Of a stretch of 64,000 bases of DNA, positions 1-51,750 are shown piece by piece. The stretch is from Leucoraja erinacea (taxonomy: Eukaryota): positions 19,654,001 to 19,718,000 of the forward strand of contig NC_073399.1 of assembly GCF_028641065.1 (NCBI RefSeq), read 5' to 3'. A program made the position numbers and the translations under genes. The notes beneath the pieces were generated by a model that saw only the letters and a list, made by a program, of their open reading frames with translations, did no database searches and was not told where the DNA came from. Position 1 is the stretch's first letter; every line of letters begins with the position of its first letter.

Positions 1-71
1 GAGGGGATTGAGCAAGGCAGGGGTACATTGTCGGGCCTGCTGTCAGCAGGTATTGTACCCTGGGTTCCCAC

Positions 72-241
72 CTTGGGCACTGCTGCCTGAAGCACGATGT
101 TGGTGACGGGCAGGGGTGAGGTGTTGATCATGGAAATGACCACAACCAGCACATCTGGCCGTGTGGGAGGACAGTCCTTCGCAAAGTGCAGCAGGATCCT
201 GAAGCCACTCTTGTCGTATGCAGTCACTGGGAGAATACCGC
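72..241 (-). CDS. GGA3: GGA3 exon 15, GAE domain (GILPVTAYDKSGFRILLHFAKDCPPTRPDVLVVVISMINTSPLPVTNIVLQAAVPK)
   Basis: 170 nt, acceptor CAG, donor GTGGGA; cumulative CDS 1947 nt (649 codons); remaining exons are outside the window. Confidence 0.96.
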
Positions 242-620
242 CTGTGACAATGCAACACACCAGTCACTAGATGATACAGGAGAGAGATTATTCCGCCCAC
301 CCAGTCCGTTACCACTGCATGTGAGCACTATCCCACGACCCCTGTCCATTGCCATATGTGGAATTCATTGCCACTGAAGGCTGTGGAGGCCAATGGCTAT
401 TTTTAAGATGGATATTGATAGATTCTTGATTAGTACAGGTGTCAGGTGTCATGGGGAGAGGTGCAGACTTGATGGGCCAAATGGCCAAATTCTGCTCCTG
501 CAACATGAACATATCCCTATAGCACAACATCTTTTTATACTTTTGAAAACTCTTACTGAATCTGCATTATTGCCTGGTCATACAGTATATCCTAATCACT
601 GAACACACTCCATATAGAAA

Positions 621-843
621 TGTGTAGGACGGAACGGCAGATGCTGGTTTAAACCGAAGACAGTCACAAAATGTTGGAGTAACTCAGGCAGGCAGCATCT
701 CTGGAGAGAAGGAATGGGTGACGTTTCAGGTCAAGACCCTTCTCCAGTCTGAAGAATGGTCTCAACCCGAAAAAACGTCACCCATTCCTTCTCTCCAGAG
801 ATGCTGCCTGTCCCGCTGAGTTACTCCAACATTTTGTGTCCAT
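621..843. mobile_element. Fold-back Penelope-like short insertion with hammerhead-like motifs
   Basis: Inverted arms about 666-747 and 749-838; degenerate TSD ACTCCATATAGAAA (607-620) / ATTCCGTATAAAAA (844-857). Confidence 0.8.
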
Positions 844-1145
844 ATTCCGTATAAAAACTGTTCTTTGAACTGTCACCAATTACTAACATGTCTCCTCATC
901 ACTGACCCTCCTGCAGCTCCCAGTAATATTAAATAACCACTGCCGTCCATCAGCAGTGCAGGAGCCCCTCACTGCCCTCGCCTGGGCATCTGCGGAACAC
1001 ACATGGAGGACACCATATTTGTTGAGCAGTCAACTCCCTGTCCTGACAAGTTCCATTTCCGCGATCGCTGCTCTGCTGTTTGTTTACACCTGGTATCACC
1101 GCCCCATTACGCATGGCTCTGAAAGCAGAGCTTACAGATACTCAC

Positions 1146-1330
1146 TTGGTTTAATCGTCTCCAGTGGAACTAACACGTTGGCAAGTGATACTTCTGGCAA
1201 TCCAGTCCGGAGAGGACTGAGCGGCAGAGGGGAGAGGGAGCGGAACAGGGGGCTGCCCGGTGCTGCAGTAGGTGTGCATTGGCCACTGCCTCCCGATGCC
1301 CCAGCCATGATACCCATCACACGAGAAGCA
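1146..1330 (-). CDS. GGA3: GGA3 exon 14 (...PGSPLFRSLS...EVSLANVLVPLETIKP)
   Basis: 185 nt, acceptor TAG, donor GTGAGT; similar to human PGSPLF...SLASIHVPLESIKP. Confidence 0.93.
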
Positions 1331-2047
1331 CTAGGGTGAAGAACAAAAACAGACTGGTTTCCTTTGTGAAAATATCTCCTACCACATCTCTGCTCTTTGC
1401 TTAGGTTATTTTCCCAGACTGTGATCCCTCTCTAGACAGAGAGTGGTGAGGGATGTCTCTCTCTCTCTCTCCCTCTCCCTTCCCCCCTCCTTGTCGGATT
1501 CTTTACACTCAAGTCTTCCCCACTGCAGGCAAATACCAGACTGGAGGGTTTTTCAGTTATAAGGAGGTTGGATAGTCGGGGATTAGTTTCCATGTAGTGT
1601 AAAAGCTGAGGGAGACCTTATAATTTAACAAAATGATGAGGTGAGTGCTAAAGGTGGATGGTCACACTCCTTTTCATGGGGAATAGAAGTCTGAAACAAG
1701 AGGGCATGGGTTTAGTTGTGCCTGATTGTCTGATAGGAAAGATTTAAAAGGTACCTAGGGTGCAACTTTTCCACACAGAGGATGGTGCATAGAAGGAACA
1801 AGCTGCTAGAGGAAGTGGTAGAGGTGGGTACAATGACAGCATTTAAAATACATTTGGACGGGGATGAGAATAAGAAACGTTTGGAGAAACATAGGCCAGG
1901 CACAAAGCAAATGGAACAAGTGTGATTGAGGAACTTGGTGCACACGGGTAGGTTGGGCCGGGGGCCTGTTCCCTGCTTTATTTTTCTCCGACTCAATGAC
2001 CACCATAAGTAATAAAAGACAGGAAGAAGATCCACAAGTTAACTCAC

Positions 2048-2394
2048 CCTCTGAGCTCTTCTCGGTGCTTCTGATCAAACGTGTTGATGTTGAAGATGCT
2101 GCTGCTAAACATTACCGGGGAGGAGGAACCCGATTGCAGAGGTTCTCCCGCAAACATGGAGACCAAGTGAGGTGCTGGCAACATGGCAGCCGGGCTGGAT
2201 CGAGCGGCAGCTTTTACTGAGAGAGGCACAGCCGGGGCGTGTGGGAGATGTGAAGCTCCGGGCATCACCAGGAGTGACGGAGGAGGGGGCTGCTGAAGGA
2301 GACGAGCTTCCGACTGCACAAGAGGATTGGTGCAGGAGCTGGACCCAGCCGGAGCTGGGGGCACGGTGAAGGGGTTGAGAACAGTGTTGTCAAT
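2048..2394 (-). CDS. GGA3: GGA3 exon 13, Pro/Ser-rich hinge (IDNTVLNPF...KHREELR)
   Basis: 347 nt open frame, acceptor CAG, donor GTGAGT; phase 2 matches exon 14. Confidence 0.85.
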
Positions 2395-2542
2395 CTGGAA
2401 CAAGAAAGCCATGTTAGAGAGAATAAAGAACCAGACCCGGCAACATGACGCAGGATATATCAGCACCACCTGGGGAAGCGCCCGTGAAATTAAACAGGTT
2501 CAAACAGGCGGAGAGGAGGTGGTGGGTGGGTGGGTGCGCTCC

Positions 2543-2592
2543 GGGGGGGGGGTGGGGGGGGGGGGGGGGGGGGGGGATGTGGGGGGGGGGGG
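2543..2592. repeat. Interrupted poly-G tract
   Basis: Direct reading. Confidence 0.9.
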
Positions 2593-2660
2593 AGAGACAA
2601 CAAGGGTGATGGAAGGACCAGGCCGAGATTGTACAAATAAGTCAGAGGAAATGGATCTAC

Positions 2661-2731
2661 CAGAAAACTTTTCAGCTGAGGTTCCCCAGGGTCCTTGTCG
2701 ATACCATTAAACGATGGAGGATCATTCAAAC
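2661..2731 (-). CDS. GGA3: GGA3 exon 12 (GLNDPPSFNGIDKDPGEPQLKSFL)
   Basis: 71 nt, pyrimidine-rich acceptor CAG, donor GTAGAT; resembles human GLADP...; restores phase 0. Confidence 0.88.
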
Positions 2732-2770
2732 CTGAACAGGAAGAAGATTAAAGATGGTCCTGTACTAAAT

Positions 2771-3083
2771 CAGTTTAGTTTAGATTAGTTTAGTTTAGAG
2801 ATACAGTGTAGAAACAGGCCCTTTGGCCCACTGGGTCCGTGCCGGCCAGCGATCCCGCATATCAACACTATCCTACACACACTAGAGATAATTTTGACAT
2901 TTATACCAAGCCAATTTACCTACATTCCTGTACGTCTTTGGAGGAAACTGAAGATCTCGGAGAAAATCCACGCATGTCGCGGGGAGAACGTACAGACTCC
3001 GTACAGACAGCAACCCGTGGTCGGGATCGAGCCCCGGTCTCCGGCGCTACAAGCGCTGTAAGGCAGCAACTTTACCGTGTTCC
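2771..3083 (-). mobile_element. tRNA-derived V-SINE (HE1-like)
   Basis: tRNA-like head with box-B-like GGCTCGATCC, V-domain GTACGTTCTCCCCG, CR1-like tail and (CTAAA)n. Confidence 0.85.
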
Positions 3084-3574
3084 CTAATAAGCCCTGGACA
3101 TCCTATCCCACTACCTCCCAAAATGCTGATCTGTTCCCAACAACAACAGTGCACCTGCATTCCAGACTGTGCACATGCAATCCAGTCCAGAATGGGGTTA
3201 GTAGGCAAGAGATAGATCAGCCAAGATTGAATCGTAAAGTAGACTTGATGGGCCGAATGGCCTAATTCTGCTCCATCACTAATGAACAGACCAAGCATGG
3301 GTCACACTTTCGTAATGATGTGGCCCTTCCACTGGGGCGCATATGGCATCTTTTGCTTCTGGTGTAAACACCAATGAGAGCTAGGCTGTCCCAGTCTACC
3401 CAGAGTTGGTCACAAAAGAACAATAAATTATCAAAATAACAGGCAACGTTATCATGCATTCAGCTCAGATTGGGAAATCGGTTCACATGCAGTTCAGGTT
3501 GACTGGTAGGGTACTGGCTACATTACCAGACTGCTACCCAGATTCCTACACTATCGTTATAGAGATACCAGAGT

Positions 3575-3920
3575 GCTCATCTTCCCAACCTGCCTCCTGC
3601 AAAGACTCTATCGCCTACTCCCAATTCCTCCGTCTACGCCGCATCTGCTCCCAAGATGAGGTGTTCCATACCAGGACATTTGAGATATCCTCATTCTTTA
3701 GAGAACGGGGGTTCCCCTCTTCCATCTTAGATGAGACCCTCGCTCGGGTCTCCTCGGTATCCCGCAATTCCGCTCTTGCTCCCTCTCCTCCCAGTCGACC
3801 TCAACCTTTCACGCCAACAGCTGTCACATACAGCACATAATCCTGACATTTTCACCACGTCCAACATGATCCCACCACTAGCCACATCTTCCCATCTCCA
3901 CCTCTTTCCACTTCGCAGAG
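3575..3920 (+). mobile_element. Penelope-like element fragment (post-RT region)
   Basis: CKDSIAYSQFLRLRRICSQDEVF...FFRERGFP, a motif typical of Penelope-like elements. Confidence 0.8.
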
Positions 3921-4353
3921 TCTTTCTCACCCAGAATAGAGGTTTCTGAAGCTAGAGAGAGAAAAGATTACCTAACCCCCAAGCCTCAGAACTAGTCCCA
4001 GTATTGCTCATCGAACGGGAATCTCACAATACAGGACAGGGACGTATCTAGGTTCCAAGTTGTGTTGTCCCAGGCTTAGATTGTAGAGCTGCTAAACAGA
4101 ATGTTACATTTCCCATAAATAGAAAAGTGGCGCATTCCCTCCGGGGCTAAACCACAGGCTTGGTGTGGACTCATCACATCTCCCCAAACTGATTCCAAAT
4201 ATCTAAATTCAAATATTCTGACAGCATGGACATCAAGAACCCTTCCACCATATTCAGTCTAATCACCCAGACGTTCCAGTACTGTGCTGCATTGGGCCGT
4301 GCGTTATTTGCACTGCCATTCGGGTCTGCAGGCTTCAGATGCAGAGCACTTAC

Positions 4354-4581
4354 CCAGTGAAAGCAGCTCCACATCCAGCAGGTCAATGGCACTGGTCGCG
4401 CTGGGAGGTTGCTTGTTCACACTTGACAGGCCGAGCAAGCGAGAGCCAGAATCACCCGTGACGTTTGGCGGAGGAGGAATGATGGGGAATATCGGTACTG
4501 GAATGGGAACCGTCTTTGCAGAGGGCACATCTAACTCCACCAAGTCGATCAGTGTTCCTGTATCACTGGTTCCACTACGGA
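4354..4581 (-). CDS. GGA3: GGA3 exon 11, hinge (VRSGTSDTGTLIDLVELD...SAIDLLDVELLSL)
   Basis: 228 nt, acceptor CAG, donor GTAAGT; contains GTLIDL and an internal DXXLL motif as in human GGA3. Confidence 0.93.
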
Positions 4582-4836
4582 CTGCAAAGAAAAATGGGGA
4601 GCTCATGTAAAACAGCGCATCAACACCACAAACAACCTTACAGCTGCTCCGAGTAGCCAATTTTTTGAATGATTATTTAAAAGCCAACATTAATTCTCCT
4701 TTCTTCCACTGAAGTCTTTCTCCAGCCCATAGATTGTTGCACAGGACAGGAAAAACCTCTAAACCAAAGTCTACATCCCCATTGCCTACTGAGTTATAGA
4801 GAGGGGTTGGGCAGGTTCAAACTTTATTCCTTGGAG

Positions 4837-4976
4837 TTTAAGAAGGAACTGCAGATGCTGGAAAATCGAAGGTAGACAAAAGTGCTGGAGAAACTTTGGG
4901 CCAAAACGTTGTCTATTTCCTTCGCTCCATAGATGCTGCTGCACCCGCTGAGTTTCTCCAGCATTTTGGTCTACCT
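4837..4976. mobile_element. Fold-back Penelope-like short insertion nested in a CR1 fragment
   Basis: TSD TTTATTCCTTGGAG (4823-4836) / TTTATTCCTTGTAG (4977-4990); arms AAGGTAGACAAAAGTGCTGGAGAAACT and AGTTTCTCCAGCATTTTGGTCTACCTT. Confidence 0.8.
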
Positions 4977-5646
4977 TTTATTCCTTGTAGCACAGGAGGC
5001 TGAGGGGTGATCTTATATACAAGATCATGAGGGGAAAAAGTAGGGTGAATGCACAGAATCGTTTACCCAAGAACCAGAGGACAAGTTTTTCACGCAAGGT
5101 GGTGGGTATATGGAACAAGCTACCAGAGGAGGGAGTTGAGACAGGTGCTATAACAACATTTAAAAGACTTTTGGACAGATACATTTGGACAGACCGGAAA
5201 GGTTTAGAGGGATATACGCTAAATGGAGACAGGTGGGACGAGAGCATAGATGGAGCATCTTGGTTGGCATGGACAAGTTGTGCTGATGGGCCCCATTTTC
5301 ATGCTCTATGACTCCATGACTCAATGAGTTAAGTATCACCCAGGGTGTGACTGGAACATCATAGCTGTATGGTCTCTGCAACAGGTCTGGAATCCTTCCA
5401 ACTCGAGATGTGAACAGCGAAAGCACAATATTCAGAGTGTGGCTTAATCAAACTACACAGTGAAACAAACATTGGCTGCGCTTTCTACTTGTTCCATACG
5501 TACAGGCTAGTTTAAGATTAATTAGACACGAGTCATGGTCTGTAATTAGACAAGGTCAGTAAGCCTGGAAACTTAACAAATGAGAGCAAGGGTGCTGAGA
5601 ATTCCTAATTTCTGGTAGATATCATTTTGACTATTAAACAAATTAC

Positions 5647-5763
5647 CTGGTGGCTTCGGAGGTTCGGGCAAACTGAGTTCTCCATTTACAGTCTGTCCTT
5701 GAACAATCTTCTTGTAGGAGTTTATAGTACGTGAAAGGTCATCGCTTGCTTGTAGAATATCAC
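5647..5763 (-). CDS. GGA3: GGA3 exon 10 (GDILQASDDLSRTINSYKKIVQGQTVNGELSLPEPPKPP)
   Basis: 117 nt, acceptor CAG, donor GTAATT; end of GAT. Confidence 0.95.
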
Positions 5764-5884
5764 CTGAAATAAAATGGTAAAATCATTAAAGGTCTTCTGA
5801 ACCAATTAGCTACCTATCTTTCTTTTTAAATAAAGTTTTCCAGGCTGCCTGCCACTGGTTCATCTTCATTTGTTAAACAAAATT

Positions 5885-7040
5885 AAAGAGTCATTGAATT
5901 GTCCAGCACAGAAACAGGTTCTTTGACCCAACTCATCCACGCAGTCTGTTCCGATCCATGTACCTTTCTTTAAATCCCATAATGATATCCACCTCCAGAG
6001 CTTCCTCTGGCAGCTCGTTTCATATATGCACCGCCCTCTGTGTTGAAAGGTTGCCCCTTAGGTCCCCCGAGATCGTTCCCTCTCACTGTAAACCTCTGCC
6101 CTCTCGTATTAGACTCCCCTAAGCTGGGAAAAAGACTGCAACCATTCACCTTATCTGCACCCCTCATGTTAGCCTCCTATTTTCTAGAGAAAAAAAGTCA
6201 CAGCCTGTCCTTATACATCAAGCCCTCCAGACCTGGTAACATCCCCATTAATATTTTTACACCGTTTCCAGCTTGATGATATTCTTCCTATAGCTGGCTA
6301 ATGAAAATTGCAAACAATACTCGTGTGGTCTCACCAACGACTTGTTCAGTTGTAACATGACGTCCTAACTCCTGTACTCCATGTCCTGACTGATCAAGGC
6401 AAATGCTTTCCTTATCACTGTCTTCCTGCATCTCCACTTTCACGCAACTATATATTGAATCCCCCAGGTATCTCAGTTCAATTACACTCTCCAGGGCCCT
6501 GCCATTTACTGTGCAAGTCTTGCCCTAGTTTAACTTATCAATGTTTAGCATCTTACACTTGCCCGAGTTAAATAACATGTGTAATTTTTTCCCCAGATCA
6601 CACTGTAAGCTGACACACTTATCTTTAGTGCCCACTGCACAACATATTTTGGTGTCATACGCAAATTTACTATTGTTAACAACATTGTTATCCAAATTGT
6701 TAGTATAGATGACAAACAATAATGGATCCACTACCGATCCCTGTGGCACAGGCCGCCAATCTCAAAAACAACCCTCAATGTTGTTTCACCTCAGTGAAAA
6801 TAGAGCATCCCCTTAAAACGGCTACCACCGAGTCAATTTTATATCCAGTTGGCCAGGTTACTCTGGATCCCATGTGTTCTAACCTTCCTGCTCAGCCTAC
6901 CATGCTGGACCTTGTCAAAGGCCATGCTGAAGTCCACATAAACACCATTTTCCATCCCATCCTCATCGATCCCTTTCGTCACCTCCTCAAAAAAATCAAT
7001 CAAATTTGTGAGACGCCATTTCCGCTGCACAAACCAAGCT
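5885..7040 (-). mobile_element. Degraded CR1 RT and 3' fragment
   Basis: LTNLIDFFEEVT...YVDFSMAFDKV; PQGSVVDPLLF. Confidence 0.85.
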
Positions 7041-7909
7041 TCAACAAAGTCTCCATTAAACGGATGTTACATTTTTGAATGTCATCTCAGTCTCTTTTTA
7101 ACATCCAAAACCCTTCTACAGAAGATTGGTCAAAAGATCCCACAATAACACCAAAGATAAATTAAAATCTCCTTTAGTCACGGCGAAGGACAGAAAATCC
7201 ACAAAGTAAGCCAGCCAGTAAATTGTCAAAGGAACGTTTTGCATGTGGGCACTTAATCAAAACTGGTCCTTTTTTAAAAATCAGATTTGGATAGACTCAC
7301 TCTGCATTTGCTAATCTGGTATGATGCTGTGCACTATACACTGATATTTACCTCCACCCAATTCTCCCACCCCCAACATAGTTTGATGGTGTTGCTACCT
7401 CTCGGTTTGTACATGAAAGACAACCAAGGTGCGTGGTCAGTACAGAACCAGAGAAATTAAATTCCTGAGTAGTCATTGTGTAACAGAGCCAGAGTCTGCA
7501 GGTTTGATCTGGAGGAAGTTGACTGCAATCAAGGTGAGTTCTACAACTAACTTGATATCCCTAGGTTCTGTTTTCAAGTGCATATATTGTGGTTGGAGGG
7601 ATTGTGAGGGCTGCTGGTTGCTGCTTGTCGCACCTCAGTCAAAATAGTTACTTCTGCAACATTTATCGGAGCATAAAATTGGGCTCAGCAAAGTCCCTTT
7701 GGCGATCTAAGAGCTTGATGATATTTACTGTGGTGGTGTCAGCTGCATCAGGACAAGGTACCGGGGAATAGCAGGTGGTTGGTTCTCCAGTTAGAGTGGG
7801 TTAGAGTAGAGGAGAGGAGGGGTGGAAGTGAGTGGGTGTGAGATGGCCACTATGGCCATCCCCAGCTACCAACACTTTACAAGCGGAGGCAGAAACTTCC
7901 CCGACGTAC

Positions 7910-7991
7910 CTAAGCTGTTGTCATTGTCCTCCGTCTCACTCGCAATTTTGAACAACGCCCGCCTCATTTTCTCACATTGGTCGTATAGCTC
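7910..7991 (-). CDS. GGA3: GGA3 exon 9 (ELYDQCEKMRRALFKIASETEDNDNSL), GAT
   Basis: 82 nt, acceptor CAG, donor GTACGT; found by manual translation, absent from the ORF track. Confidence 0.95.
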
Positions 7992-9751
7992 CTGTAAAGC
8001 AGCAGAGCTAGAGTTATTTGGCTGCACAGTCTAACTTCAGCCTCATTACTGAACCCACTGCACCTTCTGTGTTATACTGTATACTAACCTATGGTCTTCA
8101 AAGTTGAATTACATGTCCCCTTCTCCCCACCCACCCCCTCAACCTACAATTCAAGTCACTTTGCAGAAATGCATTTAATAGCGGGCAAAGAAGTATTACC
8201 AGGAAGAGACAAAATCTTTTGTTAAAGAAGTGGTTTGAATGCAAGTCTCAGGTAGTAAAGAGACATAAAGAGGTTTCGAGAACCATTTCCAGAAAAGGAG
8301 CCCCCGCTGCCAATGTTTAGTGTGGCACAATGTGGACAAAATATCAGCGAAGAACAGAGAGTTTCAAGGGATGGACTTGCTGTGGCATTGAAAGGATAGG
8401 ATGGGTCACAAATACACTCATTTTAAAATGCTCTTCAAAAATATTGTCAGATAAAATTTGACACCCGTCTACATAATGATGCATTATGGCAAATAACTAA
8501 AGAATTGTTATTGGAAGCTTAGCTCAGGGTAAAGGCTAGGTTCTGAACAGGATGACAGCCTCAGACAGTGGCCATAGAACAGAGTGGGCTTGGTAGCTGG
8601 TGTGTGGAGTTTGTAATGGGGTACGTTTCTGCTCGACCAAGAGTGGACAAGCAGACGAAAGCCGAGGGGTTAAGAGGTAGAGCTGGTGTCGTCAACAGAC
8701 ATGTTGAGCCTGATCGGACATATTTGTCTCGTGTCACAAGTCCAAGAATGGTTCTATGCAAACTCCAAAGATGACTGCGGGAAGACAAGGAGAGAAATTC
8801 CTTGATGAGATGTTCGAGGTAGGCTTGGCCTAGATGAGTGCAGATCCACTGAGCTGGGCAACGAAGCAGGATAGCAGGCTTGACCATGTCAGAATTGGAA
8901 AGAGACCAAGGAAGATGATACATTCAAGGGACATCATTTGTAACTAATTGGAGATAATGCAGTAAGTATGAGACCTGACAGGAGTGGTTCAAGCATGGGA
9001 GATGTAGAGAAAATTAGCATAGGTTTGGGATGACAATACCATGAAGAGCTGTTGTCATGGAAATGGAAGTCTGTGATGGGGACAGAGGGCTTACAGGAAC
9101 AGAGGAGTTAAGGTTGGGGTTATGATAGCACACCCAGAGAACATACCCAAGGGGAGGGAATTGTTCATATCCACTCATGTGGGGATAGGAAAAAAAAATA
9201 AGTCAGGTTCATCAGCAGTTTAGTGGAAATAGTCAAGGAGCAGAAGATGGGTAATACCAGCTTGGGAAGGGCATGAGAGATGAAACAGCATCAGAGTTTG
9301 GGCTGATGGTGCCTTCAAAAAGATTTGACCAGCCAGAATAATGAGAGAGGCAGAAAGCTAATTGAATAAATGGTCTCAGTTCGAGATTTTTTTTTTTTAA
9401 TATGTGGAGGTAGGCAAAGGAGGATTGAAAAGGTGGTTTTAGCAAAGACTAGTCAGTGATCACCACTGTATTCAAAGGTGATTCTGGGGAATGTGCAGTC
9501 GTCTTGGCTTAATAACTCCTGATATGGTTCAGCAAAATCAGCTGACAGAACCATTGAAAGCCACACACCTTGGAACTGAGGAGTGGACATGGGGCCGGCC
9601 ACTCCTGGTTGTGCAAGTGTTGGGATTGTGGCGGTCAGAGGATTGGACAGGACATACACTGCTGACATAAAGGATACAAGGTAAAGGGAGAGCTAAACAG
9701 ATTCACAGCTGTAAACACATTGCGGCATGAAGAGGGATAAGCAAGAAGTAA

Positions 9752-9982
9752 TGTGTAGGGAGGAACTGCACATGTTGGTTTAAACCGAAGACAGACACAA
9801 AATGCTGGAGTAACTCAGCAGGTCAGGCAGCATCTCTGGAGAAAAGGAATAGGTGATTTTTCGGGTCGAGACCTTTCAGACTGAGAGACTCAAAGAGTCT
9901 CGTCCCTAAATATCACCTATTCCTTTTCTCCAGAGATGCTGCCTGGCCCGCTGAGTTACTCTGGCTTTCTGTATTTGTCTTT
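9752..9982. mobile_element. Fold-back Penelope-like short insertion
   Basis: Perfect TSD AGCAAGAAGTAA (9740-9751 / 9983-9994); inverted arms centred near 9885. Confidence 0.85.
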
Positions 9983-10217
9983 AGCAAGAAGTAACTTGGA
10001 TTGAGGCCTGAGAAAGAAGGTTGCACATCTCCAAGATGTGAAAAGAACAGGCAACTGAACTACACCAAATCAATGGCGATGGATGAATATGCGTTTAGAC
10101 GAGTGGCTGCTTATGAGTTTGTTGGGCGAGAAGAGTTTGAGGGTCGAGATTACTGAATTGTATCTGGACAACAGAGTGGTGACGAGGTTTGAAGTGTGGA
10201 GGTGAAGTTAGCGTTAC

Positions 10218-10355
10218 CATCATCAACTCTTTGTCCCCTTCTGTTGAATCATCCTTGCAGTAATGGGCCAACATTTCATTCAAAAGACGAACATTATTGT
10301 TCACCTCCTCCAGAGTGTTCATGCGTTTTGTTATTTTCTGCATTCGAGCTTCATC
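10218..10355 (-). CDS. GGA3: GGA3 exon 8 (DEARMQKITKRMNTLEEVNNNVRLLNEMLAHYCKDDSTEGDKELMM), GAT
   Basis: 138 nt, acceptor CAG, donor GTAACG. Confidence 0.96.
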
Positions 10356-16469: not shown

Positions 16470-18150
16470 TATAGAAGATAGGATAATACAGCGCAGGAAC
16501 GGACCCTTCGGCCCACAATGGCTGGCCCCTTTCATGTTCATGCCAAACATAAATGCGAAGCTAAACTAATCCCCTCTGCCTGCATGTTATTCATATCCCT
16601 CTATTCCCTGCATATCCACATGCCTACAGTATCTAAGAGCCTCTTAAACATCACTATTGTGTCTACTCCCACCATGACCTATGACAGCTTCTTCCAGAAG
16701 AATACTGGTCCCGCACATCTCCTTTAAACTTTCCTCCTCTGATCTTAAAGCTGTCTTCTAGTCCTTGACATTTCCACCCTGGGGAAAAAAGGTTCTGATT
16801 GTCTACCCTATGTCTCTCCTAAATTTGTATACTTCCATCAGGTCTCCCTTCAACCTCCCTTTACAGCTAATGCCCTCTATTCCAGGCTGTATTCTGTTAA
16901 ACATCTTCTGCAACTTCTCCAAAGCCTCTACATCCTTCCTGTAATGGGGTGACCAAAATCACACACAATACTCATTCCCCCGTCCGGTGAAGACAAGCAT
17001 ACTTTTCGCCTTCTTTACCACACTTTCTACAAATGTTGTCACTTTCAAGGAGCCATGGACTTAGACCCCAAGTCTATACTTTCCACTTGCATTCAGCCTT
17101 CCAAAGAGCAACATCTCACACTTGCTCCGATCCATCTGCTATTTCTCTACCCGCATCTATAACGGATCTAAATCCATTATGTCCTTTCACAATCTTCCTC
17201 ACTGTCCACAACTCCAACTTTAGTGTCGCTGCAGACTTCCTAACCAACACATCTAAATTTAACTCTAAATCTTAATCATTTGTGTACATCACAAACACGA
17301 GCATAGAACTATGAAGAACACCACTGGTCAGTCCTGCCCCTTTCCCTCATTATTCTTTGTTTTCTGTGGGTAAGTTAATTCTGATTTCAAACTATCAAGT
17401 CACGGTGGATCCCATGCATCCTAATCTCCTGGATCAGCCTGCCATGAGAGACTTTTCTCAAATGCTGGTATACATCATCTGATGCCCTGCTCTTAAATGT
17501 CATCTCATCTCCTCAAAAAACTCAATCAACTTAAAGCCCTGTCCCACGGTACGAGTTCATTCCAAGGGTTCTCCCGAGTTTGCCCTGTTTCAAACTCGGA
17601 GATTTACGGTAATGGCAACTCGTCGGTACTCGGGGCTCTCGTGGACATTTTTCAACATGTTGAAAATTCTTCACAAGTCTTCCTGTGCTTATCTGCCGTT
17701 AGCGAGTCTTCCCGAGTACCTGCCGTTAGCGCTAAGAGACGTCCCCGAGCTCCGACGTACCCGCTACGTTCATTCTCTGTACTTACCGCGAGTTTGATTT
17801 TTTTTAAAAACTCGGGACAGCTCTTGAAATGAACTCATACGGTGGGACAGGGCTTTTAGTAAAACATGACCTGCCCTGGACGAAGCCGCAATTGTTCATA
17901 ATTATCTCATTCTCTTCCTAATGCAAGTAAAACCTATCCTGAAGAATCCTCTCCAATAGCTTCTCTCCCATTGATGCAAGGCTCATAGTCCTACAATTTC
18001 CTAGATTATTTCTACTTTCCTTTTGAACAAAGGAACAACTACTCTCCAATCCGCCAGGACCCCACCTGTGGCCTGAGAATATACAAAGATGTTTTCAAGC
18101 CCCCCCCCACAATCTCTTTTCTTGACACCCTCAATAGATCCCATTAGGCC
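16470..18150 (-). mobile_element. Degraded CR1 fragment interrupted by a MITE
   Basis: Antisense CR1 3' tail and RT-like sequence. Confidence 0.7.
17534..17855. mobile_element. PIF/Harbinger-type MITE (322 bp)
   Basis: About 48-bp TIRs AAGCCCTGTCCCAC...; TTA duplicated at 17531-17533 and 17856-17858; removal restores the host CR1 sequence. Confidence 0.88.
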
Positions 18151-22129: not shown

Positions 22130-22685
22130 CTCACGATGCAACACCTGCCCCTATACCTCCTTCCTCGACACTGTCCAGGGACCCAGACAGTCCTTTCAGA
22201 TTAGGCATGGGTTCACCTGCACCTCCTCTAACCTCATCTACTGTATCCGTTCAAGATGTGGACGTTGGCAAGACCAAAAGTAGACTTGCCGATCGTTTCG
22301 CGGAACACCTGCTGAACGCCCGCCTGAACCAACCCGATCTCCTGGTTGCCGGACACTTTATTTCTCCTTCCCATTCCTACACAGACCTTTCTGTCCTAGG
22401 TCTCCTCCATTGTCAGAGTGAGATAAAATGCAAATTGGAAAGTCGTATTAGCTTCTCGTTTTCACCCTACAAACAGCTAACAATGGCCTGTTTCCTTTAT
22501 CATTGTCACTTTTTTGCATATCTTTTATTCATTGTTCTTTATCTCTCCATATTATTGGCTGTATTTCTGGTTTCCACTATCCCTAACCAGTGTGAAGAAG
22601 GGTCTCGATCCAAAACGTCACCCATTCCTTCTCTCCAGAGATGCTGCCTGTCCCGCTGAGTTACTCCAGCTTTTTGTGTCTATCT
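22130..22685 (+). mobile_element. Penelope-like 3' end: GIY-YIG endonuclease remnant plus hammerhead-like module
   Basis: FTCTSSNLIYCI...GKTKSRLADRFAEHL...LSVLGLLHCQSE; then GTGAAGAAGGGTCTCGATCCAAAACGTC at 22592-22619. Confidence 0.85.
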
Positions 22686-23647
22686 GTGGTGCAATAGTTC
22701 AAGACTGTTCATTGTTCTGGTAATTCAATGACAACTGCAGTTATGCCTCAATTATTAATACAGGCAAATGTGTTTTTGTTTTCTTAAATGCTGCTACTTA
22801 ATCTCAACTCATTGAGTAAGAGCATCAATTGATGCGGCTGAGGGATGGGGCCAACAAATATATGCACTACAGATCTACTCTCCATAGCAAAAGATGGAAC
22901 CATCCGCACGGACATCAGGCTTTAACATTAATGATCCAGTTACCTGAAACAATGTTTACTCCCCAATATCTGATAGCAAATGAATGGGTGCATTTTCTAA
23001 CATGAACTGGAGAATAATTTTGACCGAATCCAGTCACCCTAATCAATCCACAACACCAACCTGTAGCCCTGAAAAATGCTACAAGTATTTATTTGTTCCA
23101 AGCAATAAGCTTAAAAATAACTGTTGTGTGCAAAATGTTTTTTTTCTCTCATGTCCCTAGTGTCTTTTGCCCTCAGGGTACATATACGTGAAGCTTTGTT
23201 ATCGTGTGCGTGGGCTTTAGTTTATGGAACAGCTTCCCTCTATTTATCCTTTCTAAATGGTCATTATCTTGTACATCTCAACAAATGATCCCAACCTCTC
23301 CAGGTGAACATTAAAGCACCCATAACAGCATTGCAGAAAATCTCCTCTGCACCCTCTCAAGGATCATCACCTGCTTCCTGGGGATCGGAACTGGACACAA
23401 TATCCCGGTTCTGAGCAAACCACAGGCTTTAGAAAGGCTCAATATAACCTCCCTGTTTATGACACATTGCTTATATATATACCAAAGCTTTATGCATATG
23501 TATCCTGAGGTCCATCTGTTTTTTTCAAAACAGTAATATATTCCGTCCTTCTTCTTCTGGACAAAGTGCATCACTTAATGCTTCCCCAAATTAAATCTTA
23601 CCTGCCACACCTGCCCAAACTCCCAGTTTATGTTGTCTTCTGATCTG

Positions 23648-23892
23648 AGGAATGGGTGACGTTTCGTGTTGTGACCCTTCTTCAGACCGGTAAGAGAACT
23701 GGGAAGATGGAGGGGAAGGAGAGAGAGGGAAAGCAAGGGCTACTTGAAGTTAGAGAAGCCAATGTTCATACTGCTGTGGTGTAAGCTACCCAAGCGAAAC
23801 ATGAGGTGCTGTTCTTTCTGAGGCTCTGACCTTTCTGTCCTGGGCTTCCTCCATTGACTATGTGGGAATGGGAGTGGAAGTTAAAGTGTTGG
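23648..23892 (-). mobile_element. Penelope-like 3' fragment with hammerhead-like motif
   Basis: Motif at 23658-23685 on the minus strand plus an endonuclease C-terminal remnant. Confidence 0.75.
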
Positions 23893-25665
23893 GCAATTTG
23901 GCTTCTGATCTATTATTACTTTTCCCTTAATAGGATATGACATTTACAGGTTTGTTGTTATTTGCAAATATTGACTTGTTACTGTTTACACATATCCAAA
24001 TCATTATGTAAATGCTTATATCATTAAGTTGAATCGTTGACCAGACTATTTCTAACAGGCAGTGTCTCATTCTATTCCAGACCTCTGGGAGTTCCCCTTT
24101 GGTCATTTATTCAATGACATAGACGTCATCCTAGGTAATGTGGTTACTTTCCCAGTACCTATTTAAAAAAAATCTATTTTCACCTCATACATTCTCTTTA
24201 TTACCCCTGGCCCAACAGGAAAAGCTCAGAACATTTACTGCTGTTAACATAGACAAATAACGTCTTCACAAGCCTCCTAGAAAATCAAACCATTATCTGG
24301 AGTCACTCAGTTGAGTTTGTGGTACAATATGAAGAATGCAAGGGTAAGGACACTATTGCCAAACTGTATGAAATACTCAGGTTTCAGGCACATTACTTGA
24401 TGCTTCAGATTAATACACTAATAACATTGCCCAAGCAATTCATGGGGTGTAGCGGAGAGTTATGTGGAGTAATTATGGATGAAGTTTTGTTATGTGCAAA
24501 AATTGGTTAGGCTGTTGTTATATACGTCAGAACAGAAGAGGAAGACAAGTTGATTAGAAGGCCAGGGGCGCAACCAGGGGCCGTAAAATTAAATTACAGG
24601 ATTAAAGAAAAGGCCAGGAAAATAAAATTCACCCAAAGACAAGGCATCAAAACAGAAATTCACATTGTTTAAAAAAAAACCCCATTGCTGTGCTCTAACT
24701 GCTGTAATTTCCAATAATGGACAGCAAAATACCAGTTACTGGCATAGACAATATGAGCTAAATGGTCTCTTCTGTTGCATAAAAAGTAGTAAGTTTACTT
24801 CCACAATTATAAATACCCAACCATCCCTCGACCCACTTGTACTACTAGTGTAGATAACCCCTCCTCCTTAGAAGTTTAGAGCTGACCAACTCATGGAAAA
24901 GTACAGCACTGGAACAGGCCCATTTAGTCAATGAAATCTGCACGAACTAGGGTGCCAAATTAAACTCATCCCATCTGCCTGCACATGATCCATATCGCTC
25001 CATTTCATGCACGTTCATGTATCTGCCCAAATGCCGCTTTAATGTCCGTATCGTATCTTCTTCAACCTCCAAACCTTGGCCACACATTCCAGCCACCTCC
25101 CACTCTGTGCAAAAGATTAGCCTTGTGCATGTCCCTTAAATTCTCCCCACCTTAAAGCTATACCCTCTCGTATTATTATTATTATTATTATTACCCTTAT
25201 CCCCAGTATTATTAGTGCACGTAAACCCACCCCTCACACGTCTTTAGCATTGTCATTCCTGTGTTATTATTGTGGCAGCTCTTCACTTCTCCTCCATTGT
25301 AATTTGAGGCCACCTGTGCAATGGTGGAGGATGCCCTTCATTTCTCCTATATTAAGTATAGACAACACATATACTCTGCTGTATTATTATGGTAGACTGC
25401 CCATTACCAACTTGATTTATTACTGTGCCGAATCCCTTGCTGCCCCTGTATTGTTTCTGTAAGGAACACCTCACCAAACTGTACTATCAATATAAGGAAC
25501 CCCCATCTGTGTATCACTACTGTAAATGATCTCTTGCTACACTGTAACTGTAAGTTATAGCCCACCACACATGTATTATAGTCAGTAACTTTTTGCAATC
25601 CTGCATTATTTTGGTAACCAACCACCACTTCCGTATTATTGTCAGTAACCCCACCACCATCCCTG

Positions 25666-28373: not shown

Positions 28374-30031
28374 GTCAAAGGGGTGGAGGAATTGAGTGAA
28401 ATCCAGTTAGTCGGGAAGTGGTGTTGGGTAAATTGAATGGATTAAAGGCCGATAAATCCCCAGGGCCAGATAGGCTGCATCCCAGAGTACTTAAGGAAGT
28501 AGCTCCAGAAATAGTGGATGCATTAGTAATAATCTTTCAAAACTCTTTAGATTCTGAGTAGTTCCAGAGGATTGGCGGGTAGCAAACGTAACCCCACTTT
28601 TTAAGAAGGGAGGGAGAGAGAAAACGGGGAATTACAGACCAGTTAGCCTAACATCGGTAGTGGGGAAACTGCTAGAGTCAGTTATTAAAGATGGGATAGC
28701 AGCACATTTGGAAAGTGGTGAAATCATTGGACAAAGTCAGCATGGATTTACGAAAGGTAAATCATGTCTGACGAATCTTATAGAATTTTTCGAGGAGGTA
28801 ACTAGTAGCGTGGATAGGGGAGAACCAGTGGATGTGGTGTATCTGGACTTCCAGAAGGCTTTCGACAAGGTCCCACATAAGAGATTAGTATACAAACTTA
28901 AAGCACATGGCATTGGGGGTTCAGTATTGATGTGGATAGAGAACTGGCTGGCAAACAGGAAGCAAAGAGTAGGAGTAAACGGGTCCTTTTCACAATGGCA
29001 GGCAGTGACTAGTGGGGTACCGCAGGGCTCAGTACTGGGACCCCAGCTATTTACAATATATATTAATGATCTGGATGAGGGAATTGAAGGCAATATCTCC
29101 AAGTTTGCGGATGACACTAAGCTGGGGGGCAGTGTTAGGTGTGAGGAGGATGCTAGGAGACTGCAAGGTGACTTGGATAGGCTGGGTGAGTGGGCAAATG
29201 TTTGGCAGATGCAGTTTAATGTGGATAAATGTGAGGTTATCCATTTTGGTGGCAAAAAGGAAAGCAGACTATTACCTAAATGGTGGCCGATTGGGAAAGG
29301 GGGAGATGCAGCGAGACCTGGGTGTCATGGTACACCAGTCATTGAAGGTAGGCATGCAGGTGCAGCAGGCAGTAAAGAAAGCGAATGGCATGTTGGCTTT
29401 CATAGCAAGAGGATTTGAGTATGAGCAGGGAGGTTCTACTGCAGTTGTGTAGGGTCTTGGTGAGACCACACCTGGAGTATTGCGTACAGTTTTGGTCTCC
29501 AAATCTGAGGAAGGACATTATTGCCATAGAGGGAGTGCAGAGACGGTTCACCAGACTGATTCCTGGGATGTCAGGACTGTCTATGAAGAAAGACTGGATA
29601 GACTTGGTTTATACTCTCTCTAGAATTTAGGAGATTGAGAGGGGATCTTATATAGAAACTTACAAAATTCTTAAGGGGTTGGACAGGCTAGATGCAGGAA
29701 GATTGTTCCCGATGTTGGGGAAGTCCAGGACAAGGGGTCACAGCTTAAGGTTAAGGGGGAAATCCTTTAAAACCGAGAGGAGGAGAACTTTTTTCACACA
29801 GAGAGTGGTGAATCTCTGGAACTCTCTGCCACAGAGGGTAGTTGAGGTCAGTTCATTGGCTATATTTAAGAGGGAGTTAGATGTGGCCCTTGTGGCCAAG
29901 GGGATCAGAGGGTATGGAGAGAAGGCAGGTACGGGATACTGAGTTGATGATCAGCCATGATCATATTAAATGGCGGTGCAGGCTCGAAGGGCCGAATGGC
30001 CTACTCCTGCACCTAATTTCTATGTTTCTAT
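28374..30031 (+). mobile_element. 5'-truncated young CR1 (RT to 3' tail) nested in an older CR1
   Basis: Near-identical to 43307-44960; GTCGG on both sides. Confidence 0.93.
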
Positions 30032-32683: not shown

Positions 32684-33603
32684 AACAACCATTTACCAAC
32701 ACTCTCTGTCTCCTATTGTCAAGCCAATCCTGGAAGCAGTTTGCCAGCTTACCTTGGATACCATGGGTCCATCGTGTCCCCTCATCCCACTGCTCACATC
32801 TGCTCACTCCCCCCTCCCCACTTATTTAGTTACAAAGTCCATCTTCCTTTCCCATTGGATTCCAACATGTTCAGCCCCAGGTAACCTCCACTTACCACAT
32901 ACCAACCTCTATTGTTATTTTTACTCCTTTCTCTCACCTGACACCATCTACCACACCTCACCTGGATCTATAAACCACGTGGCAGCTCTTTCCCCAGCCT
33001 CTTCACCTCTTTGTACTGGCTACCTTCACACCATTTGGAAAAAACCTTGTCAGATTACTAAAGTCCATAACAATTACATCTAATGCCCTGCCCTCATTGA
33101 TACATTTTGTTACCTCTTCAAAGAATTCAATCAAAATGGACAGACCTGGTTTGCTCTAGACAAAGCCTTTCTCGCTGTCTTTGATTAGTTTCAGTCTAAC
33201 CAATTTCCCGGCATCTTCTTCACCACCGATGTTAGGCTCACAGGTCTATAATTAACAACTGTTTCCCTGCTGCCTTACTTGAAAAGAAGGACTATGTATG
33301 CTGTCCTCCATTCACTTATGTCTAATGAAAAGATTTTAAAATACAGCCTGAGCTCTACTAATCTCTCCCCTTGCATTCCATAGCAACAGCATAATCCCAC
33401 CCAATCTGGCTTTAAGCCTGCCAAGACATTGAGTACCTCCTCTTTATTTATGATGAACTACACTTGACTTTCACCTTTCCCCTCACTATATGTTTGTTTC
33501 TTTTGTAAATGCCGATGTAAAATATTAATTGAGGACCACGCCTATACTTTCTGGCACCATGCACTGTGTGCCTGTTGCCCCTAATGGCCCCTTCCCTTTC
33601 TGG

Positions 33604-33846
33604 TGTAAGAAAGAACTGCAGATGCTGGTTTAAATCGAAGGTGGACACAAAATGCTGGAGTAACTCAGCGGGACAGGCAGCATCTCTGGAGAGAAGGAAT
33701 GGGGGACATTTCGGGTCGAGACCCTTCTTCAGACTGATGTCAGGGGAGTGGGCGGGGCAGAGATAGAATGTAGTCGGAGACAGTAAGAATGGTGGGAGAA
33801 CTGGGATGAGGGAGGGGGTAGAGAGAGAAAGCAAGGGCTAGCTGAG
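33604..33846 (-). mobile_element. Penelope-like 3' end with hammerhead-like motif
   Basis: Minus-strand CTGAAGAAGGGTCTCGACCCGAAATGTC at 33705-33732. Confidence 0.8.
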
Positions 33847-38350: not shown

Positions 38351-38504
38351 GTTTACTGCTGGTCTTTAACATAGGCGTTGAGGTTGTTTTAGAAACAGGC
38401 AGAATAACACCTGGATCAAACCTGGTTCCCAGCAATCAGGATATCGGCTTCGCTGCTGGAAGTTGGATGTTTATTCCAAGTGGCCATTCTTTCTGAATGA
38501 ACCC

Positions 38505-38598
38505 GTCTGAAGAAGGGTTTCGGCCCGAAACGTTGCCTATTTCCTTCGCTCCATAGATGCTGCTGCACCCGCTGAGTTTCTCCAGCTTTTTTGTGTAC
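38505..38598 (+). mobile_element. Short Penelope-like terminal module with hammerhead-like core
   Basis: CTGAAGA-AGGGT-TTCG-GCCC-GAAACGTT at 38507-38534. Confidence 0.75.
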
Positions 38599-39399
38599 CG
38601 GCCATTCTTTCTTCCAGGCCGTTGCGTTGTGAAACGCAGGAGTTTAGGCACATCTCCAAGAAAGGTTTCTTGGTGGCGAAGTGGAAGATTCATTATTTCT
38701 GTGTACGTGTGTGGGGGAGGAATTGTTTCGCGTATGTGTGTGTGAGAGAGAGATAGAAAGAGAAATGTCAGTACTTTTTTTGAATTGGTGTAGATTCGGA
38801 TATTGCTGATGGCATAATTCAGCGGGGCACCCGGATTTTAATTTATTTTGAATTGTCACGTGTACCTAGGAACAGTGAAAAGCTTTTGTTACGTGCTAAC
38901 CAGTCAGCACAGACAATACATGATTACATTCGAGTCATCCAGTGTGCAGATGCACGATAAAGTGAATAAAGTGCAAGATAAAGTCGAGTAAAGTCCGATT
39001 AAAGGACTCCAATGAGGTACATGATAGCATCTTTGTAATGCGCGTTTTCAGCTCAGTTAGTGTTCTACACTTGAATGGACCGAGTGCCCTCTGTGTTCTG
39101 TTGAATTCTCATCCTAGTCATGGTTGCAGCTGCGTTTTAGTACCTCGTCCCTTTGTTACATGCAGGTTATCCAGCAGCTGTGTCATTATTGAATGGATGA
39201 GTATTGGATCATCACTGCCCTGATGTTTGTCTGGGTGCTGCTTGTACCTGCACAATGAGTCTGAAAGCCATCCCTTTGGTGTTTGTGTAAGGATGAGTGC
39301 ACTTTGAAGTGAAGGGTCCATTTACACAGCTCGAAGTTTGGCACCCCTTGCAATAATCCGCAGCGCATTGGTAGGCTGTGATTTGTAATACAATTTAAA

Positions 39400-39785: not shown

Positions 39786-40645
39786 CTTTCTTGTTGCACA
39801 TTGCCAACCTCTTGACATCATGGGCTCACAATACAAACTCTACTTGTATGGTGGTCACAGAGGATAGGGGCTCATTGCGAATGGGCTTCTGATAGGGCCT
39901 GTGATCACCTTATTGGGTGGAACAGGGTTTATCTGCTATTGTTACCTGTGGGCGAAAGTGGTCTGGAAAGGATCATTTCCTCATTGCTTGAACTTGCAGA
40001 GAAGGGTCACCTCGCCTACTCCTCCCACAGTTTGTGGGTGTCCTGGCTGTTGTCTCATTGGACAATTAGACCTCCTCCAATGTATGCCCTGCCACCATCA
40101 AGAGGAGATAATTTGGGGAGGAAAAACCTTACTTTTCTCCTTGCCCTGGGTACTGAGCATGCCTCGGGTGAGTCGAACCACTTTTAAAACGAGCTGTTTT
40201 AGGGCATTGAGTGAATCACAGCTGGTAGCTGCTGGGTTTAGTTTTGAATGTATATCTAAAATTCATGAGTTTGTGGTGTCGTATTTTAGTTCACTTCAGT
40301 CATCAGTCAGACTTGAATAAGGCGCCTCAGATTTCTTCTCCTGTACATGGGTTAAGTATCTGAAACTGAACTCTCAGTCTAAACCATTCTTTCCCTGGTA
40401 TTTGTAACCGTGCTGCTCAATTAGCCCTGTTGATGTATTAATGTTGTAGATGGAAACATCACAAACCACCACACAAAGTGTAACATGTCCTTCACCTCAT
40501 TGCTTCCATTCAAGCAACCGAATTACGCCCACAAGTGTTGCTCAAGTGCTCTCCTCGTCTTTGAGAAAAACAAGCACAGAGAAACTGTACCTTTTTCATA
40601 ATATGAACACATGAGTTGCTAGTTGTTCTATTCGAATGGATGAAG

Positions 40646-41107
40646 AGAGACACGAGGAACTACAGATATTGGAATCTTGAGCAAAAACACAAAGTGTTTT
40701 AGGAACTCGGAAGGTCAGGCAGCATCTGTGGAGGAAATGGACAAACCATGTTTCTGGTCGAGACTCATCTTCAGACTGCTTGTAGTAAGAGGGGAGAAAG
40801 CTGGAAAAAAGATGTAGGTGTGGGACAAAGCCTGGCAAGTGATAGGCGGATACAGGGGGGGGGGGGGGGTTATTGATTGGCAGGTGGGTTGAGTAAACAT
40901 TTGACCACCCATCTGTCGATTAAAACATTCCTAAATCTTTATCTACCAATAACCTGCCGTACTTTGTCCCACTTCCATCTTGCTTTTCCAACACCCTCCC
41001 CCAAGTTGCTATGAAGAAGGGTCCAGACCTGAAACATCCTTTGTCCATTTCCTCTCCAGATGTTGCCTGACCTGCTGAGTTCCTCCAGCACATTGTGTTT
41101 TGCTTAC
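40646..41107. mobile_element. Older, longer fold-back Penelope-like insertion
   Basis: Inverted copies of the same 3' module at both ends; possible degenerate TSD AATGGATGAAG / AATAGATCAAG. Confidence 0.65.
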
Positions 41108-41862
41108 AATAGATCAAGTTTCATCATAAAGCTCTTATTCCTACCAAAATAGCACCCTTGCTATATTGTGGACTATATCCAGCTGGTGTACAAACTTGCT
41201 AATTGTTCCATCACTAAAAATTACAAATAATGTTGGCTCCATGTAGCTATTCCGCTGAATATAGCTAAATAGTCACATTCTGATTGCTGTATAAAAATCC
41301 CACACAACATAATGAAATGTTGATCAGAGGCTATAATTCACGATTAAAATCCTGTTCATAGTTCTTCGCATGTACAGCTAACGACTGCTGGGATATTGAA
41401 CACACAAGACTAAATGATAAATATCCTGATTACGACATTGACTCTTCAATCTCAAAGTTGGGACTGGTGTTGGACCATCCTGACCATTTTAATCACCGCG
41501 TACATGCAATTCTAGAGAATAAAATGAGGGCTTAGAGTTTGTGGTCAGTGGCGGTGAGCCAACATTGCTTGAACCTGACCCACACAAGAAGGTTTAAATA
41601 ATTAGTGTGCTACTCCAAGCACCAGTTTGCTGAAAGATACTAGCTCCAGCCTCGGCAGTGATTCCATTGCAGCAGCTTTCAGCTGGCAAATCACTGCAAG
41701 AGACTGCGGGCATCCCTGCCCATGTATTGTGTGATGGTTGGCTGCCAAATGTTCACAAACATTCAAACATTTATAACTGTTTCACAATTAGTCAATCTAT
41801 GCTTAAAAAACAATAACATGAAACACTTTGATCAGGATCATAGAGAGATGCAGCACAGTGGG

Positions 41863-50878: not shown

Positions 50879-51392
50879 TAACCTAGATTGCTCTCCCCTG
50901 TTTTGTCCCTTTGATCTTTGCAGATGGTATGATGTGGATGAGATTATGTTTGATCAGGATGATGTGTTTTGAAAAGTCTAAGGCTGCTTGCATTCAATAG
51001 GTTAGCCTGACAAAATGTTGCACCTTTTAAATTTTAGTACTAATGCTGCTGATTTTTAAATCAACAAAGGTTTTAAATCTGCAACTTGGATTGATTACCC
51101 TGTCATGCTGATATTTTGTAGCATGGACTCTGAAAGAGACTATATGTTAGATGAGAACTTTGGTTCACACACTTGTGTTGAGCTAGTGGATAGGTGACTG
51201 ATCATCTATTGCTCTGCTCAAGCCTGTGAGTCTGGCTCCTTACCCATCAGGGACAAGGCTACAGGTGCTATTCTTAGTTGTTAATCTCCAGTTTATGTAT
51301 TCAAGCACTGGTGGCAGGGTTTAACCTGGGACCTCCCAGATCTGTGGCCTTGGACCTTGCATTTACTGAGTGAGCCAAGAGGGTGAGAATGT

Positions 51393-51750
51393 CGACACAA
51401 AATACTGGAGTAACTTAGCGGGTGAGGCAGCATCTCTGGAGAGAAGGAATGGGCGACGTTTCGGGTCGAGACCCTTCTTCAGACTGATGTCGGGAGGGGG
51501 CGGGACAAATATAGAATGTAGTCGGAGACAGTAAGACTAGTGTGAGAACTGGGAAGGGGATGGAGAGAGAAAGCAAGGGCTATCTGAAGTTGGAGAAGTC
51601 AATGTTCATGCCGCAGGGGTGTAATCTACCCAAGTGAAATTTGAGATGCTGTTCCTCCAATTTGCGCAGGGCCTCACTCTGAAAATGGAGGAGGCCCAGG
51701 ACAGAAAGGTTAGATTGGGACTGGGAGCAGAAGTGCTGAGCCACCGGGAG
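51393..51750 (-). mobile_element. Penelope-like 3' end with the best-preserved hammerhead-like motif
   Basis: Minus-strand CTGAAGAAGGGTCTCGACCCGAAACGTC at 51455-51482, downstream of an endonuclease C-terminal remnant. Confidence 0.85.

What the first reader, a model, noticed from the sequence alone, without database searches (positions are those of the whole stretch)
621..9982. TSD-flanked fold-back Penelope-derived mini-elements (621-843, 4837-4976, 9752-9982; also 40646-41107)
Seen: four independent insertions of about 140-460 bp. Each starts at the same terminus (…AGGAACTGCAGATGCTGG-like), contains an inverted duplicate of the Penelope-like terminal module, and is bounded by an 11-14 bp direct repeat (perfect AGCAAGAAGTAA at 9740/9983). 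The two arms of each copy share variants that differ between copies. Copy 1 has ATGTTGGAG/CTCCAACAT where others have ATGCTGGAG. The 9752 copy has GAAAAGGAATAGG/CCTATTCCTTTTC. The 4837 copy has GAGAAACT/AGTTTCTC. In the 621 and 9752 copies the inversion axis is just 5' of the CTGAAGA core. Known: Penelope-like elements often leave inverted partial terminal repeats. Inference: each hairpin arose from one template in a single integration event, repeatedly across subfamilies, giving a non-coding MITE-like retro-product. These would put roughly 30-100 bp dsRNA stems into GGA3 and NHERF1 pre-mRNA and, in the symmetric copies, a ribozyme-like motif on either strand.
Basis: partly seen in the sequence, partly recalled or inferred. 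Interest (0 to 1): 0.8.

Follow-up and report, generated by a model that had tools for sequence, protein, structure and literature searches.

The report
Head-to-head Penelope retroelement end stubs
These short hairpin-shaped inserts are truncated ends of a very common Penelope-like jumping gene, laid down in a pattern already described for that class, and their sheer number gives a useful clue to how the pattern is made.

Summary
The four hairpins are real. Each is two head-to-head copies of the 3' terminal module (134 nt in the profile) of an abundant Penelope-like element (RT, zinc-finger linker, GIY-YIG; Neptune/Nematis type), inside an 11-14 bp target duplication. One arm carries the ~35-nt 'tail', the other stops near base 99. 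This architecture (inverted pLTR, one-sided tail, TSD) is published. It is the short end of a truncation series, not a separate MITE: junctions differ per copy. It is very common: 50 pairs in 600 kb sampled, roughly 180,000 genome-wide by extrapolation. TSDs: 38 of 53 against 5 of 400 shuffled. Arms agree at subfamily sites (0.81 against 0.60 expected), so one event, mostly one template lineage. Two-tailed hairpins are about fourfold depleted (188 against 713 expected), and the tail-less arm often reaches further 5' (20 against 10). That favours priming of both target strands at the two known RT start sites over the published self-priming idea; this is inferred. The axis is at CTGAAGA in only 16 of 84 pairs, and none of the eight window arms keeps an intact hammerhead core. 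The scan noted the same pattern before in other genomes.

The parts
621..845 (.). Fold-back copy 1: tailed arm (module 1-134, minus strand, 622-751) head-to-head with tail-less arm (plus strand, from 745)
609..620 (+). Left target duplication of copy 1 (right copy 846-857, 2 mismatches)
4837..4976 (.). Fold-back copy 2: short tailed arm (module 69-134) and longer tail-less arm, inserted in a CR1-like repeat fragment
4823..4836 (+). Left target duplication of copy 2 (right copy 4977-4990, 1 mismatch); present once in 6 paralogous matches of the host repeat
9752..9982 (.). Fold-back copy 3: tailed arm (module 2-134, minus) and tail-less arm (module 10-about 99, plus)
9740..9751 (+). Left target duplication of copy 3 (right copy 9983-9994, perfect)
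40646..41107 (.). Fold-back copy 4: older subfamily; both arms run about 110-120 nt upstream of the module, arms alignable over about 200 nt
40635..40645 (+). Left target duplication of copy 4 (right copy 41108-41118, 2 mismatches, weak)
22140..22685 (+). Broken 3' part of the parent element: GIY-YIG-like coding remnant, 3' untranslated part and tail-less module (22588 on)
38499..38599 (+). Solo tail-less module with its own 13-bp target duplication and an intact minimal hammerhead core pattern
33601..33737 (-). Solo tailed module with upstream element sequence; used as the first reference

Best explanation
These are dead-on-arrival, heavily 5'-truncated insertions of a high-copy Neptune/Nematis-type Penelope-like element (shown). 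Mechanism (inferred): the GIY-YIG endonuclease nicks both target strands about 13 bp apart; both 3' ends prime reverse transcription on the element's RNA, one at the end of the tail (module base about 135), the other at the inner start site (about base 99). Both cDNAs stop early, often near the start of the hammerhead motif, and are joined 3' end to 3' end through a few matching or added bases. Repair gives a head-to-head pair, one arm tailed and one not, inside one TSD. The template is usually one RNA or RNAs of the same subfamily.
For: Parent: 838-aa open frame with RVT_1 and GIY-YIG hits (E 5e-6 and 9e-4, both below Pfam's cut-off; L082 frame reaches the GIY-YIG cut-off); module follows the frame's stop in all of L133-L150 (18 loci, of which L148 repeats L141). 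Orientation: adjacent hits within 20 bp are head-to-head in 42 of 49. TSD score >=8 in 38 of 53 against 5 of 400, median 13 bp. One-tail rule: 41 of 52 classifiable pairs, p 1.3e-5; genome-wide 188 two-tailed against 713 expected. Tail-less arm reaches further 5' in 20 of 41, tailed arm in 10, equal in 11; nearly non-overlapping tail-only arms occur (L042, L048, L051, L133). Arm agreement 1331 of 1651 diagnostic cells against 989 expected. In vitro a Penelope-like protein cuts and extends both strands and starts at two sites that bound the tail (PMC11167929).
Against: No experiment; the in vitro data are for a Poseidon element, whose paper reports no difference in start site between strands, so why the two strands pick different sites is unexplained. 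Later loss of hairpin centres could make the 5' asymmetry on its own; 20 against 10 is only a mild bias. Most arms overlap widely, which needs strand displacement or two RNA copies. Microhomology at the tail-less end is weak (mean 1.47 against 0.46 in a one-sided control that understates chance). Some pairs have arms of different subfamilies.
Confidence: 0.65

Rival explanations
1. Self-priming or fold-back: one strand (an antisense RNA, as proposed by Arkhipova et al. 2013, or the first cDNA) folds back at a short palindrome and is copied into the second arm; later centre deletions blur the axis.
For: Arms share subfamily and some rare variants (17 against 4.1 expected). Short palindromes and microhomologies at many junctions. 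Proposed in PMC3846280 (Discussion read).
Against: The copied arm cannot extend past its template, so the tailed arm should reach furthest 5'; the tail-less arm does so by 15 nt or more with a tight junction in 16 of 41 pairs, the tailed arm in 6. Tail-only arms and subfamily-discordant pairs (L012, L060) do not fit.
Confidence: 0.2
2. A separate non-autonomous hairpin element (MITE-like master copies transcribed and retroposed as a unit).
For: Short forms dominate; solo copies with TSDs often begin within module bases -2 to +10 (14 of 20), next to an initiator-like TCAGTCT (motif recalled), so short RNAs may be templates.
Against: Junctions differ from copy to copy (one search lists 65); arm lengths form a continuum; the same inverted arm caps ORF-bearing insertions (L133, L134, L138).
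Confidence: 0.07
3. Two separate insertions, the second targeted to the first, with arms later homogenised by gene conversion.
For: PLE endonuclease cuts its own pLTR region in vitro (PMC11167929). About 9-11 of the 50 listed two-tailed pairs have arms of different subfamilies, by eye. Shared CpG-site changes are mildly raised, 48 against 33.
Against: One TSD bounds the whole unit, and empty paralogous sites carry it once. Orientation and the one-tail rule are not expected from independent events. Arms are still about 13% diverged at non-diagnostic sites, so conversion is not strong.
Confidence: 0.08

Closest known systems
Complex insertions of endonuclease-positive Penelope-like elements (PMC3846280; PMC8557442)
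   Same: Head-to-head inverted 5'-truncated pLTR copy, 30-40 bp tail at one end only, TSD around the whole unit, hammerhead motif in the pLTR.
   Different: Here most units are reduced to the two terminal arms with no ORF, TSDs are longer (median 13 bp against 8-10 bp in the rotifer examples), and the copy number is of the order of 100,000.
Neptune/Nematis clades of PLEs (definition in PMC8557442)
   Same: C-terminal GIY-YIG with CxxC inside, DKG motif, CX4CxxC linker between RT and endonuclease in L143.
   Different: No tree was built, so Neptune against Nematis was not resolved.
Poseidon element of Anolis in vitro (PMC11167929)
   Same: Two 3' end classes about 35 nt apart; extension of both strands would give this structure.
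   Different: Other clade; the passages read do not link dual extension to inverted genomic copies.
LINE-1 twin priming (PMC2837659, abstract start seen; details recalled)
   Same: Inverted, truncated insertion inside one TSD from priming on both target strands.
   Different: L1 segments cover mostly different parts of the RNA and inversion is the minority; here both start at fixed sites 35 nt apart, overlap widely, and make up about 40% of module hits.
Non-LTR retrozymes (bioRxiv 10.64898/2026.07.22.740005)
   Same: Short non-coding PLE derivatives with type I hammerhead motifs.
   Different: Retrozymes are head-to-tail tandem arrays; these are head-to-head pairs or solos.

Membership tests
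EN+ Penelope-like element insertion | Terminal repeat belongs to an element encoding PLE-type RT with C-terminal GIY-YIG | tested here: met
   Module follows the ORF stop in L133-L150; RVT_1 and GIY-YIG hits
EN+ Penelope-like element insertion | Inverted 5'-truncated copy adjacent at the 5' end (head-to-head) | tested here: met
   42 of 49 adjacent pairs within 20 bp
EN+ Penelope-like element insertion | 30-40 bp tail at one end only | tested here: met
   41 of 52 pairs; 4 of 4 window copies; 188 against 713 genome-wide
EN+ Penelope-like element insertion | Target-site duplication around the unit | tested here: met
   38 of 53 against 5 of 400; 7 of 53 with paralogous empty sites
EN+ Penelope-like element insertion | Hammerhead motif in the pLTR | tested here: inconclusive
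   Minimal core pattern intact in 18 of 130 sampled hits, 0 of 8 window arms; no Rfam match at gathering score; cleavage not testable
Neptune clade | CX2-5CxxC linker between RT and endonuclease, plus CCHH motif | tested here: met
   Read in the L143 frame; definition from PMC8557442; shared with Nematis
Neptune clade | Placement in an RT phylogeny | not tested
   No reference set of named PLEs was at hand
MITE (non-autonomous DNA transposon) | Uniform length and fixed internal structure, with terminal inverted repeats reaching both ends | tested here: not met
   One end has a 35-nt extra tail, junctions and lengths vary
Non-LTR retrozyme | Head-to-tail tandem units each with a complete type I hammerhead | tested here: not met
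   Tandem neighbours within 20 bp are 6 of 49; window arms lack intact cores

The most novel reading that the evidence does not exclude
Penelope-like elements integrate by built-in twin priming: the protein dimer primes both target strands, one at each of the two RT start sites, so the one-sided tail, the inverted pLTR and the long TSD are one signature. A short RNA starting at an initiator just before the hammerhead motif supplies most templates, and about 100,000 or more such hairpins seed this genome's introns with double-stranded RNA, much as inverted Alu pairs do in primates.
Probability: 0.35. Interest if true: 0.6.

Novelty: new member of a known kind. Interest (0 to 1): 0.33.

Why it matters
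The structure itself is ordinary for the class. What matters is scale: how PLEs form their tandem and inverted structures is called undefined in PMC8557442, and this genome offers thousands of countable events. The counts made here discriminate between published self-priming and dual priming, and give a direct prediction for the existing in vitro system. The hairpins may also be a large source of intronic double-stranded RNA, which is untested.

Tried and rejected
Rfam scan of the window: no match at gathering scores. Orthologous empty sites: contigs of four related organisms' runs laid on 300-10300 were swamped by repeat copies; contigs of X9, X13 and X14 end inside the 9752 copy from both sides, and X12 and X14 contigs start inside the 621 copy, so these insertions look shared; no contig bridged an empty site; at 4837 three runs stop at the element edge with unlaid letters, which cannot be read either way. 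RNA: no RNA holder listed, so editing and small RNAs were not examined. The 5' extension figures for paired arms are confounded by the partner arm and were dropped; only the junction classes are used. The 30 loci were chosen by likeness to a whole hairpin and are left out of frequency, tail and 5'-extent counts; 28 of them (L001 and the duplicate L025 dropped) are in the TSD and concordance sets. Hammerhead cleavage as the cause of 5' ends: no peak at the predicted cut near base 31. Literature searches for Penelope plus twin priming and for mechanism plus both strands since 2022 gave no paper on this; the library lacks most subscription journals, so absence from print is not shown. More random sampling was not possible, so sample sizes stay at 600 kb plus 30 pattern loci.

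Full report
Observation. All four inverted pairs and their flanking direct repeats are present. The window lies in a 2.19-Gb genome. The three copies at 621, 4837 and 9752 lie between exons of a GGA-type gene on the minus strand (VHS, N-GAT, GAT and adaptin-ear hits in 6 of 64 window stretches scanned). The 40646 copy follows a PDZ exon (1 of 139 stretches with a hit). Folded as RNA, the 621 and 9752 copies give long stems at -153.2 and -140.8 kcal/mol, z about -19, as any such inverted pair would.

What the arms are. A profile built from 61 near-full hits gives a 134-nt module that starts CAG-TCTGAAGA. It begins about 120 nt after the stop codon of a frame with RT and GIY-YIG in all 18 loci examined (L133-L150, one a repeat). 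One locus has an 838-aa open frame with the DKG motif, a CX4CxxC linker and a CxxC-bearing GIY-YIG, the features given for Neptune and Nematis in PMC8557442 (passages read). A 251-aa piece of it has 124,755 first-look candidates in the genome, and one exact 28-mer of the module occurs 27,411 times. So the arms are 3' pseudo-LTR ends of a Penelope-like element, with their RNA 3' ends pointing outwards.

How common. Sixty 10-kb stretches placed at fixed coordinates on large contigs hold 253 module hits. Adjacent hits within 20 bp are head-to-head in 42 cases, tail-to-tail in 1, tandem in 6. Fifty head-to-head pairs within 100 bp take up 100 of the 253 hits, which extrapolates to about 180,000 pairs (sampling error roughly 25%). 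Four in 64 kb is average for this genome.

One event. Of 53 isolated pairs with one tailed and one tail-less arm, 38 have a flanking direct repeat scoring 8 or more, against 5 of 400 shuffled flank pairs; median length 13 bp among the 34 best. Seven of the 53 sit in host repeats whose other copies show the two flanks joined with the duplicated stretch once, among them the 4837 copy. Laying four relatives' runs gave no readable empty site.

Template. In 65 unselected pairs the arms share 170 non-consensus bases against 61 expected, 17 rare ones against 4.1, and 50 of 65 exceed their control identity. At 21 diagnostic sites they agree in 1331 of 1651 cells (0.81; expected 0.60; non-partner neighbours 0.57; ceiling from decay about 0.87).

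Mechanism. Module 3' ends fall in two classes, near base 99 and at base 134. In pairs they are not independent: 41 mixed, 3 two-tailed and 8 tail-less among 52 classifiable of 74 pairs (p 1.3e-5). Genome-wide exact anchors agree: 5,568 body-body hairpins, 2,043 and 1,943 tail-body, 188 tail-tail where 713 are expected; the tail anchor also catches subfamilies that the body anchor misses, so the depletion is understated. PMC11167929 (main text read) shows a Penelope-like protein cutting and extending both target strands and starting at two sites that bound the tail. If each strand uses one site, the product is this structure. The self-priming model of PMC3846280 (passages and Discussion read) needs the tailed arm to reach furthest 5'. 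In 41 mixed pairs the tail-less arm does in 20, the tailed arm in 10, neither in 11; with a margin of 15 nt and a tight junction, 16 against 6. Later deletion of hairpin centres could mimic part of this, and the in vitro paper saw no strand difference in start site, so dual priming is inferred, at about 0.65.

Axis and ribozyme. Both arms start within 8 nt of the module start with a gap up to 20 nt in 16 of 84 pairs; one arm does in 27, neither in 22, and 19 have longer gaps. Solo copies with a TSD (20 of 120 against 3 of 300 controls; only 45 nt upstream searched) start between bases -2 and +10 in 14 of 20 (counted from its list). So there is a hot spot for 5' ends, which may be an RNA start at an initiator-like TCAGTCT (motif recalled) or an RT stall. 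The motif fits a minimal PLE hammerhead (PMC6155905, passages read), intact by pattern in 18 of 130 sampled hits and in none of the eight window arms.

Known or new. PMC3846280 describes an inverted pLTR, a 31-bp tail on one repeat and 8-10 bp TSDs; PMC8557442 calls this typical. The retrozyme preprint concerns tandem forms (first part and passages read). Supplements of these papers were not read and may show further structures. Three earlier notes of this scan report the same pattern in other genomes; they were seen after my reading was fixed and are not used as support. Verdict: a new, very abundant member of a known kind; the added value is a countable test of an open mechanistic question.

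Noticed in passing
window 17529-17860: Inverted repeat with 53-nt arms (87%) and a 40-bp central palindrome at 17638-17677, unrelated to the module; looks like a true DNA-transposon MITE.
   Followed up: no
window 41662-44682 and 28558-29415: Long open frames of a CR1-like LINE (endonuclease and RT; family name recalled), one close to full length.
   Followed up: no
window 3560-3920: Broken fragment of the same Penelope-like element's RT thumb region inside a GGA intron.
   Followed up: partly
window 23643-23896: Minus-strand remnant of the element's 3' part, cut at about module base 47, facing the 22140-22685 copy tail-to-tail about 1 kb away.
   Followed up: no
window 38499-38599 and 51388-51486: Two solo tail-less modules keep the minimal hammerhead core pattern; stem II differs between subfamilies in a way that keeps pairing.
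   Followed up: partly
L115:1-2270: Open frames resembling a retroviral integrase end and envelope gene in a randomly placed stretch (resemblance recalled).
   Followed up: no
L045:4309-8747: Gag-like, RT/RNase H-like and tyrosine-recombinase-like frames, resembling a DIRS-type element (resemblance recalled).
   Followed up: no
L053, L055, L068: Clusters of five or six module copies in mixed orientation within about 1 kb, suggesting repeated insertion into older copies.
   Followed up: no
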